Origin: Nitrososphaerota archaeon
GTDB taxonomy: Archaea; Thermoproteota; Nitrososphaeria; Nitrososphaerales; Nitrosopumilaceae
DNA: 64,000 nt
Reading direction: 5' to 3'
Assembly (NCBI GenBank): GCA_028867755.1
Contig: JAGWFT010000001.1
Span: forward strand, 164,727 to 228,726
Position numbers and translations under genes: made by a program. The notes beneath the pieces are model-generated. The model searched no databases. It had not been told where the DNA came from and saw only the letters and a list, made by a program, of their open reading frames with translations. This document shows, piece by piece, positions 39,328 through 54,105 of this stretch; within the stretch, counting starts at the first letter, position 1, and each line of letters opens with the position of its first letter.

Positions 39328-39915
39328 ATGTTTGAAAAGTTCAGAAAGAAAAAGGACGAATTTAAGCCGGATTCCACTGAAAAGGAGGAAGAAAGTGTTA
39401 CATCTGAAACCATACAATATCAGCCTCAAGAGATCAGACCGGAGGAAACTGATGTTATTGAGCAATCTAGAACCAAACCTACTGAACAAGTAAAAATATC
39501 AGAACCTATGCAACAAAGAGCAATGAGTGCATCTGGAGAAGATATAGGAATAAGAGCCCTAATGGACAAACGAACTAAGCTTGAGGAAGCAATTGATTAT
39601 GTAGGATTAATGATTAAGAATTTGAAAGATAAGAGAACGAATCTGGAAAAGAGCATAGAAGACGAATCTGTGGACATTAAGAATCTTAAGGAGAAACTGA
39701 TTAAGGTTGGTCAGTATCTTGAAGAGGAAAAACAGGGAATAAAGACATTACAACAAAAGAGAGGCGAGGTTGAAAGAGAAGCAGATGATGTAGCTGCAAT
39801 TATCAACAACCTGCGTGAAAAATTATTGAATATAGATAGGATAGTAAATGAAGAAGGCAGTAAGATAGAGAAATTTAAAGATACTAGACCCAAGTCTGAA
39901 TCTTCGTTCGGCTAG
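39328..39915 (+). CDS. Coiled-coil hypothetical protein
   Basis: Long heptad-rich C-terminal ~110 aa. Confidence 0.8.
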   Translation: MFEKFRKKKDEFKPDSTEKEEESVTSETIQYQPQEIRPEETDVIEQSRTKPTEQVKISEPMQQRAMSASGEDIGIRALMDKRTKLEEAIDYVGLMIKNLKDKRTNLEKSIEDESVDIKNLKEKLIKVGQYLEEEKQGIKTLQQKRGEVEREADDVAAIINNLREKLLNIDRIVNEEGSKIEKFKDTRPKSESSFG

Positions 39916-40289
39916 AAAGTAAAGCCTTCTTTTAGAATACTGTTAAGATTTTCCTTTATTTCCTCTTCGGATGACAGTGAGTCAAGATCTCTAATTAATA
40001 CCTCAGTTGCAAGACATTGATTCTTTGAGAATTGATAATAACAATCTAGTTTTTCTTGATAGGTTTTTGCATTGTAATAAATGCTCCAAAAGTTTTCTGT
40101 AGAGTGCTGTACGTAAAGTAAAAATTTTCTAATGGTCGTCTCAATTTTAGAGGAAGGATTGTCTTTCATTAGTCCAATTAGAATCTGCTCTAACTTACTG
40201 TCCAAGTTTGATTCATAAATCAATTGGTAAATGCCCCCGTCTTTTGTCACGCTTGCTTTATGTGGCTGTATCATAAAAGCTTTCATCAA
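39912..40289 (-). CDS. Hypothetical protein
   Basis: 125-aa ORF, 4-nt overlap with the convergent gene. Confidence 0.7.
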   Translation of the reverse strand: MMKAFMIQPHKASVTKDGGIYQLIYESNLDSKLEQILIGLMKDNPSSKIETTIRKFLLYVQHSTENFWSIYYNAKTYQEKLDCYYQFSKNQCLATEVLIRDLDSLSSEEEIKENLNSILKEGFTF

Positions 40290-40402
40290 TAATTTTCAAA
40301 AAATCATTCATTTACACATAATATATTTAGCTATCTTAAAAAAATTAAAATTTCAAATATGAAATTAGTCATAATGCTTAAATAATTTTCATGCGTATTA
40401 AT

Positions 40403-40597
40403 GGTCCCTGTCAGAGGACAACTCCTAAGACAGGAATCATGCAGCAAACATGCGTGATACGGTCAAGGGTAAATCCTGCCGTAGAAGATCCAGCGGAGAA
40501 ATCTCAAGGAAGTGGTGACAATGGTCATCATGTCTTGGAATGCATGTATTCCCCCGCATGACGTGTGTGAACCACACGTCTGCATGATAGAATTTTT
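40403..40597 (+). ncRNA. Candidate multi-helix structured ncRNA (family not recognised)
   Basis: TATA CTTAAATA at 40377-40384; 5' hairpin CCTGTC/GACAGG; closing helix ATCATGCAG 40436-44 / CTGCATGAT 40580-88; nested CATGCG/CGCATG, TACGG/CCGTA, ACGTGTG/CACACGT; T-tract at 40593-40597. Confidence 0.6.
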
Positions 40598-40661
40598 CCA
40601 ATTACAATAAACTAAGCTATGTAAATTATTCAAATAGATTGTACAATAATAGCAGTTTAGT

Positions 40662-40732
40662 GATTGTCTGAAAGAATGTAGCCTCAGCGATCAGAGAAAT
40701 TGATGCGGTACATTCTTCCTAGTCAGATTATC
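40662..40732 (+). other. Long imperfect hairpin downstream of cdvB (candidate RNA element)
   Basis: AAGAATGTA 40672-80 / TACATTCTT 40709-17; TCTGA/TCAGA; apical ATCA-GAGAAAT-TGAT. Confidence 0.4.
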
Positions 40733-40741
40733 CAGGACAGT

Positions 40742-41380
40742 CTAGATGTAGCGGGCAGAAGATGATTGACTGCTGGCTGGCATGGAAGGCAGTTTGTCGT
40801 TGACTGCTGCCTCTGCAACTGCTGCAGCTTCTTGCATAATCTTCTCTGATTCTTCGTCTGAAACTCCAGAATCAATTCCAAAGTCGCCACCATGGAATGT
40901 ATCTGTCATTAATCCACCTAGCATTTCAGTCATTCCTGACAACTCGCGATCTGCTTCTGGCATAAACTGTACCAGAGATGATCTTAGGCTCTTCATCAAG
41001 CCAATTGTTGGCATGATTGTGACAAGTGTATCTCCCAGATCGTGGAAGGTACTGAGTCTGAGCACTATTTGTTCTAGTGCAATTCTAGCATTTCCGAGAA
41101 GCTTGGTAACTTTCCTAACTTCGGCTAATTCTTTTGATAAAACCTTACTAGCGGTAGTATCATGTTGTTGAGTGGCAACTACAATTCTTTTGAATAACTT
41201 TTCATCTTTTTGTTTTAATTTTGTAAGCATTCCATCAAGTTTTCCAGTTTGGACCTGGAGTCTTTTTACTGCCTGTTCCATCCTTGGCTTCAGAGGACCT
41301 TTTGGTCTTATAGTGTCGTTAAATCTTTCACCAATGCTTGGTGTCTGTGGTTTTTGCCAATTGTTAGTAAAGTTTGTCAT
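40742..41380 (-). CDS. cdvB: ESCRT-III/Snf7 family CdvB paralog
   Basis: Same Snf7 core as 7617-8258 (KPRMEQAVKRLQVQTGKLD..LSKELAEVRKVTKLLGNARIALEQ). Confidence 0.88.
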   Translation of the reverse strand: MTNFTNNWQKPQTPSIGERFNDTIRPKGPLKPRMEQAVKRLQVQTGKLDGMLTKLKQKDEKLFKRIVVATQQHDTTASKVLSKELAEVRKVTKLLGNARIALEQIVLRLSTFHDLGDTLVTIMPTIGLMKSLRSSLVQFMPEADRELSGMTEMLGGLMTDTFHGGDFGIDSGVSDEESEKIMQEAAAVAEAAVNDKLPSMPASSQSSSARYI

Positions 41381-42046: not shown

Positions 42047-42991
42047 ATGTTAACCGAAATTCTTATAAGATATAATATGACACGCGAATCTTTCGGTTCT
42101 GGCGGACGTTGTCCTCGTTGTGGAAAAGGTCCAATGGTTACAGATAGCACCACAGGTGAAATGTTTTGTGGTGGATGCGGATTTGTTATGACAGAACGTG
42201 TTGAGGAATCTGGACCAGAATGGAGATCATTTTCTAAAGAGGAACATGAAGATCGAAGTAGGACAGGAACTCCAACATCACTTGCAATGCATGATATGGG
42301 ATTAGCAACAATAATTGGTCCTGCTGACAAAGATGCATCAGGAAAACCACTTTCTGCATCTATGAAAAGTACAATTGAGCGACTTAGAACTTGGGATAGC
42401 CGAAGTCAAGTTCATGAACCAGTAGATAGAAACTTTAGACAAGCTTTCAGTGAGCTTGATAGACTAAAAGACAAACTTGCATTATCAGATGCAGTAATCG
42501 AAAAGACTGCATACATCTATCGAAAAGCACTTGATAAAGGGCTTGTTAGAGGAAGATCAATTCCTGGACTCGTAGCTGCTGCACTTTATGCAGCATGTAG
42601 AGATACTGAAACTCCTAGAACTCTGACCGATGTTGCAAGTGGAATCAACATTAAAAGAAAAGATGTTGCACGATGCTATAGACTTTTACTCAGAGAACTT
42701 GATCTCAAGATGCCTGTAGTCGATCCAATAAAGTGTGTAGCAAGAATTGCAAGCAAAGCTGGATTAAGTGAAAAAACAAAACGAAAGGCCCTACAAATTC
42801 TAAAAGATGCCGCAGAGATTGAAATTTCTGCTGGCAAAGATCCAATGGGACTTGCAGCTGCTGCTCTGTATCTCTCTTGTGTAATGAATGGAGAGAATAA
42901 GACACAGAAAGATGTTGCACAAGCTGCTGGAGTAACCGAAGTAACAATTAGAAATAGATACAAGGGATTAAAAGAATCCCTCAAGCTCTAA
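42047..42991 (+). CDS. tfb: Transcription initiation factor IIB
   Basis: Zn ribbon CPRC..CGGCG; GPEWRSF; two cyclin repeats; GVTEVTIRNRYK. Probable start MTRES at 42078. Confidence 0.97.
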   Translation: MLTEILIRYNMTRESFGSGGRCPRCGKGPMVTDSTTGEMFCGGCGFVMTERVEESGPEWRSFSKEEHEDRSRTGTPTSLAMHDMGLATIIGPADKDASGKPLSASMKSTIERLRTWDSRSQVHEPVDRNFRQAFSELDRLKDKLALSDAVIEKTAYIYRKALDKGLVRGRSIPGLVAAALYAACRDTETPRTLTDVASGINIKRKDVARCYRLLLRELDLKMPVVDPIKCVARIASKAGLSEKTKRKALQILKDAAEIEISAGKDPMGLAAAALYLSCVMNGENKTQKDVAQAAGVTEVTIRNRYKGLKESLKL

Positions 42992-53843: not shown

Positions 53844-53989
53844 ACTGTAAAAAATTATTCAAAAAAAGCACTGTTCTCATTGAATTGTTATTATCAATAA
53901 AAGAATTATTGAAAATACAATTATTAGTTGTAATAATTATGATCAATTGTTAAATATCATGAAAACGTATAATGATTAATGAAGAAAGA

Positions 53990-54105
53990 CGCAAATTCTA
54001 ACGACTGAATTTGCGTGGTCCTGTGAAAAACAGTACATAGTAGGTGCACAAAGGTGCGCAAGTGGCAAGAGAATGCTTTTGCCTATACAGGACCACGCCT
54101 TTACA
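53990..54105 (+). ncRNA. Candidate structured RNA: 5' hairpin + three-way junction
   Basis: CGCAAATTC/GAATTTGCG; GCGTGGTCCTGT 54013-24 / ACAGGACCACGC 54087-98; GTGCAC-AAAG-GTGCGC; GGCAAGAG-AATG-CTTTTGCC; TTAAATA at 53950-53956. Confidence 0.5.

What the first reader, a model, noticed from the sequence alone, without database searches (positions are those of the whole stretch)
40377..40597. Stand-alone ~190-nt multi-helix candidate ncRNA with its own promoter and terminator
Seen in sequence: TATA-like CTTAAATA ~20 nt before a 5' hairpin (CCTGTC..AGGA-CAAC-TCCT..GACAGG), and a 9-bp closing helix (40436-44/40580-88). Inside are a nested 6-bp helix (40449-54/40555-60), TACGG/CCGTA capped by AGGG-TAAA-TCCT, a GAGA-AA-TCTC mini-hairpin, GTGGTGAC-AATG-GTCATCAT and a perfect ACGTGTG/CACACGT hairpin, followed by a T-tract. 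No ORF over ~20 codons was found from the + strand ATG. I could not find RNase P (GAGGAAAGUCC and the 3' P4 strand), SRP helix 8, tRNA, C/D or common riboswitch signatures. It may be an undescribed thaumarchaeal structured RNA.
Basis: partly seen in the sequence, partly recalled or inferred. Interest (0 to 1): 0.78.

Follow-up and report, generated by a model that had tools for sequence, protein, structure and literature searches.

The report
New folded RNA gene in Nitrosotalea
The flagged stretch is a real, single-copy gene for a roughly 190-base folded RNA that makes no protein; acid-soil ammonia-oxidising archaea (Nitrosotalea) and several sister genera keep it with many compensating base changes, it matches no described RNA family, and its job is unknown.

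Summary
Window 40403-40597 (+) is a GC-rich island (0.45-0.50, against 0.17-0.35 in the flanks). It has an archaeal TATA box at 40377-40384 and a T-tract at 40593-40597. Its fold is far more stable than shuffled sequence (z = -5.1).

- **Distribution:** 32 of 34 other Nitrosotalea genomes hold one copy. Covariance models also find it in at least seven sister genera of Nitrosopumilaceae. They found none in 127 genomes of 19 other families of the order.
- **Structure:** an 11-helix, 59-pair fold is kept in 92-93% of cells, against 31-49% for slid controls. Both sides changed in 24 of 59 pairs (unbiased MAFFT alignment) and in 47 of 59 (68 distinct sequences, model-fitted alignment).
- **Not coding:** no reading frame is conserved.
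- **Not a known family:** Rfam 15 gives no hit on the element or on 14 homologous loci. The genome's RNase P and SRP RNAs lie elsewhere. The element is not a tRNA, C/D, H/ACA or leader RNA.

The RNA is a new orphan family. I think it most likely works as a compact scaffold for a ribonucleoprotein particle, but that is inference. No expression data could be found.

A second undescribed RNA family, "type B", shares its promoter in other genera. The scan had noted this same stretch once before, unchecked.

The parts
40377..40384 (+). Archaeal TATA box CTTAAATA
   Evidence: Read. It is invariant or nearly so in 30 genus copies and kept in sister genera. It lies 19-24 nt upstream of the first helix. 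The TATA-like boxes upstream of this genome's RNase P and SRP RNAs sit 26 and 23 nt from model position 1.
40390..40401 (+). Conserved promoter-proximal block CATGCGTATTAA (CACGTAWT in most relatives)
   Evidence: Conserved between TATA and the predicted start across genera. It is also shared with the promoter of the separate 'type B' RNA: a BLAST cross-hit shows 90% identity over 29 nt. It is not a general promoter feature in this genome: 4 hits against 17 for the control pattern.
40403..40597 (+). Predicted transcript, about 190-195 nt (ends inferred, not measured)
   Evidence: The start is inferred from the TATA spacing and the end from the conserved T-tract. CM R1 scores 176.5 bits on 40400-40600.
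40407..40434 (+). P1, the 5' hairpin outside the closing helix: outer CCTGTC/GACAGG, a 3x3 A-rich internal loop, inner GGA/TCC
   Evidence: Helices 1-2 are 98-99% paired. Pair 11/34 reads AU in 15 sequences, GC in 13 and GU in 2.
40436..40444 (+). P2 5' strand (ATCATGCAG) of the closing helix
   Evidence: Pairs with 40580-88; 97.8% paired. Seven of nine pairs show changes on both sides once other genera are added. The core AUGCAG/CUGCAU is kept in sequence in all but the most distant copy, L036, which keeps the helix with other letters.
40449..40454 (+). P2b 5' strand (CATGCG)
   Evidence: Pairs with 40555-60. All 4 model pairs covary.
40458..40483 (+). P3 hairpin (TACGG/CCGTA plus AGGG/TCCT, loop TAAA)
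   Evidence: Helices 6-7: GC, AU and UA exchanges in most pairs.
40490..40509 (+). P4 mini-hairpin GGA-GAAA-TCT, with flanks CC...GG and the same A-rich internal loop as P1
   Evidence: Helix 8. The loop is GNRA-type here; the arm is longer in sister genera.
40505..40537 (+). P5 arm with tip GAC-AATG-GTC
   Evidence: Helices 9/10. GAC and GT of the tip are invariant in 35 sequences from 8 genera; the last tip base is C in over 90% and T in L041/L042. The stem covaries: UA in 21, CG in 6 and UG in 3 at pair 133/144.
40537..40552 (+).
   Evidence: Helix 10/11. All 6 pairs show changes on both sides.
40555..40560 (+). P2b 3' strand (CGCATG)
   Evidence: See the P2b 5' strand.
40561..40579 (+). 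P7 hairpin ACGTGTG-TGAAC-CACACGT
   Evidence: Helix 11/12: 89% paired, with 4 pairs showing changes on both sides.
40580..40588 (+). P2 3' strand (CTGCATGAT)
   Evidence: See the P2 5' strand.
40593..40597 (+). T-tract terminator (TTTTT)
   Evidence: A run of four to six T is kept at this position in almost all genus copies and in every other genus.

Best explanation
Window 40403-40597 (+) is an independently transcribed, single-copy gene for a compactly folded non-coding RNA of about 190 nt. It belongs to a family not described before.

The fold has these parts:
- a 5' hairpin (P1);
- a long-range closing helix (P2, core AUGCAG/CUGCAU);
- a nested helix (P2b) that encloses four hairpins (P3-P6);
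- a last hairpin (P7) before the 3' strand of P2;
- an oligo-U tail.

What is shown: conservation, the fold, the strand, that it does not code for protein, and that it is not a member of any known family.

What is inferred (my odds about 0.4): it acts in trans as a folded particle, most likely as the RNA scaffold of a ribonucleoprotein. The docking sites for protein or tertiary contacts would be the parts that stay nearly constant in sequence. These are the base of P2, the P5 tip GAC-AAWG-GUY, and the twin A-rich 3x3 internal loops of P1 and P4 with a GNRA-type P4 loop. I do not think it works by simple base-pairing with mRNAs. The confidence given below is for the shown part.
For: - **Stability and composition:** z = -5.06; the element is a GC island.
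- **Strand:** the TATA box and T-tract are oriented for +. One pair is G-U in 30 of 30 sequences, and G-U variants occur at 25 further pairs of the 59; all would be A-C on the other strand.
- **Conservation:** one copy in 30 of 34 other Nitrosotalea genomes by BLASTN, plus 2 more by CM. CM hits in genera g30, g68, g77 (100-150 bits), g70, g75, g73 (39-52 bits), g69 and one g24 genome (23-25 bits). The distant hits fold on their own into the same architecture and carry the same promoter and terminator.
- **Pattern scan:** 60 of 62 genome-contig hits are thaumarchaeal, including Ca. Nitrosotalea devanaterra LN890280.1.
- **Covariation:** 92.3% of cells paired against 32-49% slid; 24 pairs changed on both sides against 6-9 slid (MAFFT alignment). 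With 68 distinct sequences: 93.1% against 31-46%, and 47 against 7-24.
- **Not coding:** the longest ORFs differ in strand, frame and sequence among 30 copies, and indels are not multiples of three.
- **For a folded-particle role:** all 11 helices are under pairing constraint. The P5 tip and P2 core are near-invariant across genera. The candidate seed loop of P1 is altered in this very genome while its pairing is kept.
Against: - No transcript evidence: no RNA run holds the stretch, and the metagenome hits are all DNA contigs over 1 kb.
- No protein partner is identified. Neighbouring genes differ between lineages. The one conserved neighbour, p125, models as a helical bundle with no RNA-binding signature.
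- The scaffold role rests only on the pattern of conservation. A ribozyme or a ligand-binding RNA would look the same.
- The alignments were fitted to the model, so they lean towards the structure.
- The sequences are related, so the shuffle controls overstate significance.
Confidence: 0.85

Rival explanations
1. It is a trans-acting base-pairing regulatory sRNA. The C/U-rich P1 loop (AUCCUCCC in most species, like an anti-Shine-Dalgarno sequence) pairs with G-rich ribosome-binding regions of mRNAs, and the rest of the RNA only stabilises it.
For: AUCCUCC(C) sits in the P1 loop in most Nitrosotalea, g30, g68 and g77 copies. A similar hairpin loop occurs in the type B RNA of g31 and g65.
Against: In this genome the loop reads CAACUCCUAAG and the UCC is paired. 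The motif is lost in the g70, g73, g75 and g24 copies, which keep the rest of the fold. Eleven helices under pairing constraint is far more structure than such sRNAs need. No target was tested.
Confidence: 0.12
2. It is a catalytic or ligand-sensing RNA, that is, a new ribozyme class or a trans-acting aptamer.
For: It has a closed multi-helix junction, near-invariant nucleotides in loops and at the base of the closing helix, and a GNRA-type loop with possible receptor-like internal loops. This is the conservation pattern typical of such RNAs.
Against: No known ribozyme or riboswitch model matches. No co-oriented downstream gene exists for it to regulate. No pseudoknot or active-site-like covariation could be separated from clade effects.
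Confidence: 0.1
3. It is a highly diverged copy of a known archaeal RNA: RNase P, SRP, C/D, H/ACA or tRNA-like.
For: Its size and GC-richness in an AT-rich genome resemble housekeeping RNAs. A UGAUGA-like word sits in P5.
Against: RNase P RNA (174.5 bits) and SRP RNA (106.6 bits) lie elsewhere in the same genome. Rfam gives no hit at E<=10 on this locus and none at E<=5 on 14 homologous or related loci. ARAGORN finds no tRNA. The UGAUGA word is a Watson-Crick strand with compensatory changes. The 3' tail has no conserved ACA.
Confidence: 0.02
4. It encodes a small protein: the 56-codon ORF at 40391-40561 (+), or one of the two minus-strand ORFs of 54 and 56 codons.
For: These ORFs exist in this genome.
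Against: The ATG is not kept (CACGTATT in most copies). Indels of 1, 2, 4 and 7 nt occur. The longest ORF changes strand and frame among the 30 copies. The ATG lies 6 nt after the TATA box, upstream of any plausible start.
Confidence: 0.01
5. It is a cis element of a neighbour: a 3' structure or antisense partner of the convergent cdvB mRNA, or a divergent-promoter element of p125.
For: The order p195, p125, RNA, cdvB, tfb is kept in Nitrosotalea, g30, g68 and g77.
Against: The RNA ends 145 nt before the cdvB stop here and about 1.3 kb from cdvB in g30/g68/g77. In g70, g73, g75, g69 and g24 it lies among other genes: RtcA, a plastocyanin-like protein and others. It has its own promoter and terminator.
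Confidence: 0.04

Closest known systems
Archaeal RNase P RNA (Rfam RF00373) and archaeal SRP RNA (RF01857)
   Same: Single-copy, GC-rich, multi-helix, stand-alone RNA genes in an AT-rich thaumarchaeal genome. The 5' and 3' parts are joined by a long-range helix, and the gene has a TATA promoter.
   Different: Both are found elsewhere in the same genome at 174.5 and 106.6 bits. This RNA is shorter (about 190 nt against 278 and 313 nt), gives no hit to either model, and is restricted to part of one family.
Orphan structured RNAs of unknown function found by comparative genomics, such as the HgcC family of GC-rich RNAs in AT-rich archaea, or bacterial raiA and OLE RNAs (named from my own knowledge)
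   Same: It was recognised the same way: a GC-rich island in an AT-rich intergenic region, covariation, own promoter and terminator, and no known role.
   Different: It has no sequence or model similarity to any of them. Its phyletic range is different (Nitrosopumilaceae). The resemblance is one of category, not homology.
'Type B' RNA of other Nitrosopumilaceae genera
   Same: Same core promoter: TTAAATAT, then 8-9 nt, then CACGTAAT, then ATATTG. One copy per genome. It has a closing helix joining the ends. In g31 and g65 it has a P1-like hairpin with a UCCUCC loop and a YCAAGGNAAA motif, and it lies next to the p125 homologue.
   Different: The body differs and the CMs do not connect the two. 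In g31/g65 it is co-oriented with p125, whereas here the RNA is divergent from p125. Genomes G167 (g24) and G189 (g69) hold a hit of each type, G189's type A hit being weak at 23.5 bits, so the two look like separate genes. The exact pattern was not found in Nitrosotalea, g30, g68 or g77.
Archaeal C/D box and H/ACA guide sRNAs
   Same: Small stable archaeal RNAs. A UGAUGA-like word is present in P5.
   Different: This RNA is three times longer. The word is one strand of a covarying Watson-Crick helix. There is no D box partner, no conserved ACA and no pseudouridylation pocket. No snoRNA model hits the element.

Membership tests
Archaeal RNase P RNA (RF00373) | Match to the family covariance model (P4 and conserved core) | tested here: not met
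   No hit on the element at gathering score or at E<=10. The genome's copy is at C24:787396-787673, 174.5 bits.
Archaeal SRP RNA (RF01857) | Match to the family covariance model (helix 8 and helix 6 motifs) | tested here: not met
   No hit on the element. The genome's copy is at C24:483417-483729, 106.6 bits.
C/D box sRNA | Box C (RUGAUGA) and box D (CUGA) forming a K-turn near the termini; length about 50-70 nt | tested here: not met
   The UGAUGA-like word (40513-19) pairs by Watson-Crick with 40524-31 and covaries (UA in 21, CG in 6). The weak C/D model hits lie outside the element (40262-40317; L042:1812-1895).
H/ACA sRNA | Hairpin with a pseudouridylation pocket followed by a conserved ACA/ANA box | tested here: not met
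   The 3' tail after P2 varies (AGA, GGA, TGA, AAA, CTA, CCA and others). The closing helix encloses about 135 nt of helices, not a pocket.
tRNA or tRNA-like | Cloverleaf found by ARAGORN | tested here: not met
   ARAGORN finds 0 genes in the whole window.
Riboswitch or cis-regulatory leader | Lies in the 5' UTR of a co-oriented downstream gene; matches a known aptamer model | tested here: not met
   The next gene (cdvB, 40742-41380) is convergent. A T-tract ends the unit. There is no Rfam hit.
Small protein gene | Reading frame and start codon conserved among homologues | tested here: not met
Stand-alone structured ncRNA gene (generic) | Conserved promoter and terminator on one strand | tested here: met
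   G-U pairs fit the + strand only.
Stand-alone structured ncRNA gene (generic) | Secondary structure supported by compensatory changes beyond controls | tested here: met
Stand-alone structured ncRNA gene (generic) | A discrete transcript is made | not testable with these tools
   No RNA run is listed for this stretch. The metagenome hits are DNA contigs over 1 kb.

The most novel reading that the evidence does not exclude
This RNA and the promoter-sharing 'type B' RNA are two branches of one unrecognised superfamily of fast-evolving structured RNAs. The superfamily would be present throughout Nitrosopumilaceae, the main marine and soil ammonia oxidisers. It would mark a new housekeeping ribonucleoprotein, or a new ribozyme, specific to ammonia-oxidising archaea and transcribed from a dedicated promoter type.
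Probability: 0.2. Interest if true: 0.85.

Novelty: categorically new. Interest (0 to 1): 0.64.

Why it matters
Ammonia-oxidising archaea drive nitrification in soils and oceans, yet beyond rRNA, tRNA, RNase P and SRP RNA I found almost no structured RNAs described for them. This is a well-supported new RNA class: about 190 nt, 11 covarying helices, kept across at least eight genera, with a defined promoter and terminator. Its host includes a cultured organism, Ca. Nitrosotalea devanaterra, so Northern blots, structure probing and pull-downs are directly feasible.

RNAs this ornate and this constrained have so far usually turned out to be ribozymes, ligand sensors or cores of ribonucleoprotein particles. 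A second family shares the same unusual core promoter, which hints at a dedicated transcription programme for such RNAs.

The caveat is that 'new' here means new family and fold. The function is unknown, and it could still prove to be a lineage-specific variant of a known kind of particle.

Tried and rejected
- **Rfam:** scan at gathering score over the whole window, at E<=10 over 40200-40800, and at E<=5 over 14 homologous or related loci. Nothing lay on the element.
- **RNase P and SRP identity:** rejected, because both lie elsewhere in the genome.
- **tRNA:** none found.
- **Coding:** rejected.
- **Expression:** The look-up of sequencing runs listed 20 DNA-type holders (mine drainage, soil) and no RNA holder. 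I laid no reads. The metagenome pattern scan gave 80 contigs, all over 1 kb and none transcript-like.
- **Literature:** six full-text searches on Nitrosotalea, Nitrosopumilus or Thaumarchaeota with ncRNA, sRNA, structured RNA or TSS terms, plus two papers read, gave no description.
- **Protein partner by neighbourhood:** p125 (39912-40289, -) stays beside the RNA in four genera. But Pfam and NCBIfam are blank. Its model (pLDDT 79) is a five-helix bundle with no PDB match below E 0.4 and only faint MIT-domain rows. In g70, g73, g75, g69 and g24 the neighbours differ.
- **Pseudoknot search** by mutual information on 68 sequences: the top non-nested pairs all track the clade split and are not interpretable.
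- **P1-like hairpins elsewhere in this genome:** 13 hits against 5 for the control; only the known one is real.
- **TATA-N-ACGTA as a general promoter feature:** rejected (4 hits against 17 for the control).
- **Type B as a simple replacement of this RNA:** rejected, because G167 and G189 hold a hit of each type.
- **K-turn, BHB and 11-nt GAAA-receptor readings** of the P1/P4 internal loops: I considered these by eye and none fits its consensus. They were not tested with a tool.
- **Model building:** A core-only model, R2, was used instead.
- **Earlier notes of this scan:** nothing relevant beyond a second unchecked reading of the same stretch.

Full report
**What is there.** The TATA-like box CTTAAATA lies at 40377-84 and the 5' hairpin at 40407-34. 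The 9-bp closing helix pairs 40436-44 with 40580-88, and a nested helix pairs 40449-54 with 40555-60. Hairpins lie at 40458-83, 40495-504, 40512-31 and 40561-79, and TTTTT at 40593-97. I add a hairpin at 40537-52 and the outer pairs of the 40505-37 arm.

The stretch is a GC island: 0.45-0.50 against 0.17-0.35 beside it. The + strand folds to -75 kcal/mol, against -52.3 +/- 4.5 for 200 dinucleotide shuffles (z = -5.06). The - strand gives z = -4.1.

A 56-codon ATG ORF runs from 40391 to 40561 on the + strand.

**Host and surroundings.** A degenerate pattern built from three conserved blocks hit 62 places in 185,579 species genomes. Sixty of them are in Thaumarchaeota. Most are labelled Nitrosotalea, including Ca. 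N. devanaterra LN890280.1 and strains TS and FS; the rest are uncultured Nitrosopumilaceae. Two are chance hits in bacteria. So the window's genus is Nitrosotalea.

The neighbours are as follows:
- a coiled-coil protein at 39328-39915 (+);
- a 125-aa protein of no family, here called p125, at 39912-40289 (-), divergent from the RNA;
- a CdvB1/B2-like ESCRT-III gene at 40742-41380 (-), convergent (NCBIfam E = 9.5e-43; Pfam Snf7 below cut-off);
- TFB at 42047-42991.

No co-oriented gene follows the element, so it is not a leader.

**Not a known RNA.** Rfam 15 (4227 models) gives nothing in the whole window at gathering scores. At E<=10 over 40200-40800 it gives only chance hits outside the element. 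At E<=5 on 14 homologous or related loci it gives nothing on the element. The genome's RNase P RNA (174.5 bits) and SRP RNA (106.6 bits) lie 580 kb and 280 kb away on the same contig. ARAGORN finds no tRNA. Six literature searches and two papers gave no description.

**Conservation.**
- BLASTN finds one copy in 30 of 34 other genomes of the genus, at 67-82% identity, and none in 24 genomes of other genera.
- The covariance model R1 recovers two of the four missing genus genomes. The remaining two are 96% and 78% complete.
- R1 and the core-only model R2 find the RNA in sister genera: g30, g68 and g77 at 100-150 bits; g70, g75 and g73 at 39-52 bits; g69 and one g24 genome at 23-25 bits. Neither finds it in the other genera of the family that were sampled. 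R1, with strict filters, also finds none in 127 genomes of 19 other families of the order.
- The weak hits are credible. Each folds by itself into the same plan: a 5' hairpin, a closing helix on AUGCAG/CUGCAU (GUGCAACAG/CUGUUGCAU in L036), four to five internal hairpins including GAYGAC-AAWG-GUYRUC, a last hairpin and a U-tract. Three of the five carry a like promoter. Two of them (g73, g24) share a plastocyanin-like gene upstream.

**Structure.** I took the RNAalifold consensus of one clade and tested it on a plain MAFFT alignment of all 30 genus copies.
- 59 pairs in 11 helices are paired in 92.3% of cells, against 32-49% when the 3' partners are slid by 1-3 columns.
- 24 pairs show changes on both sides, against 6-9 in the slid controls.
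- 0 of 500 shuffles reach the observed paired share, count of double changes or covariation score; 38 of 500 reach the count of further pair types.
- With other genera added (model-fitted alignments, which lean towards the model), the figures are 93.2% with 46 pairs (35 sequences) and 93.1% with 47 pairs (68 distinct sequences).

One pair is G-U in all 30 sequences and many others vary through G-U. This fits only the + strand.

The sequence-constant parts are the AUGCAG/CUGCAU core of the closing helix, which only the most distant copy (L036) replaces with other letters, and the P5 tip GAC-AAWG-GUY, which all eight genera keep. P1 and P4 repeat one module, C-[ARA]-GGA-loop-UCC-[YAA]-G. P4 ends in a GNRA-type or UGAAA-containing loop in most lineages.

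**Not coding.** The start codon is lost in most copies. Indels of 1, 2, 4 and 7 nt occur. The longest ORF in each of 30 copies differs in strand, frame and sequence.

**Promoter and ends.** The TATA box ends 19-24 nt before the first helix. In this genome the TATA-like boxes of RNase P and SRP RNA sit 26 and 23 nt from model position 1. I therefore place the start at about 40403-40408 and the end in the U-tract, giving about 190-195 nt. Both ends are inferred.

The block between TATA and start (CACGTAWT) is conserved across genera, but it is rare elsewhere in this genome.

**Function.** Nothing measured bears on it.
- *Against a simple base-pairing sRNA:* the one conserved exposed C-rich loop (AUCCUCCC in P1) is changed in this very genome and lost in distant copies, while every helix is kept.
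- *Against a cis role:* the distance to cdvB varies from 145 nt to about 1.3 kb, and distant copies sit among unrelated genes.
- *p125:* it stays beside the RNA in four genera, but it models as a helical bundle with no RNA-binding likeness. Its only faint resemblance is to MIT domains, which would suit its ESCRT-III neighbour better.

I therefore commit, at about 0.4, to a folded trans-acting particle, a ribonucleoprotein scaffold. The near-invariant P2 base, the P5 tip and the twin A-rich loops would be its contact sites. My odds for the rivals are: ribozyme or sensor 0.1, base-pairing sRNA 0.12, cis element 0.04.

**A second family.** Beside the p125 homologue of genera g31 and g65 lies another RNA of about 130 nt. 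It has the closing helix GACGAGGA/UCCUCGUC, a P1-like hairpin with a UCCUCC loop, and almost the same core promoter.

An exact-pattern scan finds this 'type B' once per genome in 31 of 151 family genomes. These fall in g24, g65, g71, g76, g31 and others. It finds none in Nitrosotalea, g30, g68 or g77, and the reversed-pattern control gives zero. A few GC-rich hits look like coding chance matches. Two genomes hold a hit of both types, one of the type A hits being weak, so they look like separate genes, perhaps old paralogues. Type B has no Rfam match either.

**Unpublished genomes.** G010, G011, G017, G026 and G032 (loci L012, L020, L003, L005, L008) are among the 30 rows of alignment A1, so they enter and model R1. 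All but L020 also enter A5. For four of them (L003, L005, L008, L012), loci from the public genome contigs records give identical scores (L075, L078, L103, L084). Alignments A3 and A4 and model R2 use none of them and give the same conclusions.

**Verdict.** This is a real, conserved, independently transcribed structured RNA gene of a family not described before. Its function is open.

Noticed in passing
L115:1319-1451 (+), L114:1319-1447 (+), L147 (- strand), and G167:C7:17080-17195: A second undescribed RNA family ('type B') in other Nitrosopumilaceae genera. It is 110-135 nt, with closing helix GACGAGGA/UCCUCGUC and 3' tail GUCCUAUCUC, one copy per genome, and the same core promoter as the RNA studied here. 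It was found in 31 of 151 family genomes by exact pattern, and the reversed-pattern control gave 0. It has no Rfam hit.
   Followed up: partly
window 39912-40289 (-): p125 is a small protein with no Pfam or NCBIfam family and an invariant C-terminal TF (GFTF in most copies). It is conserved at 33-77% identity in at least ten genera. It lies next to this RNA in four genera and next to type B in two. Its model is a five-helix bundle (pLDDT 79) with only faint MIT-domain likeness, and it sits in a cluster with a coiled-coil protein and a CdvB paralogue.
   Followed up: partly
window 53951-53969 (+): TAAATATCATGAAAACGTA, a close match to the special promoter block of these RNA genes, lies about 45 nt upstream of the 86-nt structured element at 54013-54098 that another first-stage note describes.
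   Followed up: no
window 40600-40740: Downstream of the terminator, a block like ATAGACAAAACTATGGAAATTTTTCAAATGCATT is conserved in most genus copies. It lies in the spacer before the convergent cdvB stop and may be the cdvB terminator or 3' UTR.
   Followed up: no
window 40568-40577: The copy of the 10-mer TGTGGTTCAC that another note counts inside this RNA is the P7 loop and stem of this genome only. In other species it reads GTGAATCACAC or similar, so this copy is not conserved as a motif.
   Followed up: partly
L036:564-1370 (+) and L138:1808-2617 (-): In genera g24 and g73 the RNA lies directly downstream of, and co-oriented with, a plastocyanin-like copper protein of about 268 aa. In g70 (L136) it follows an RNA 3'-phosphate cyclase (RtcA) gene.
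   Followed up: no
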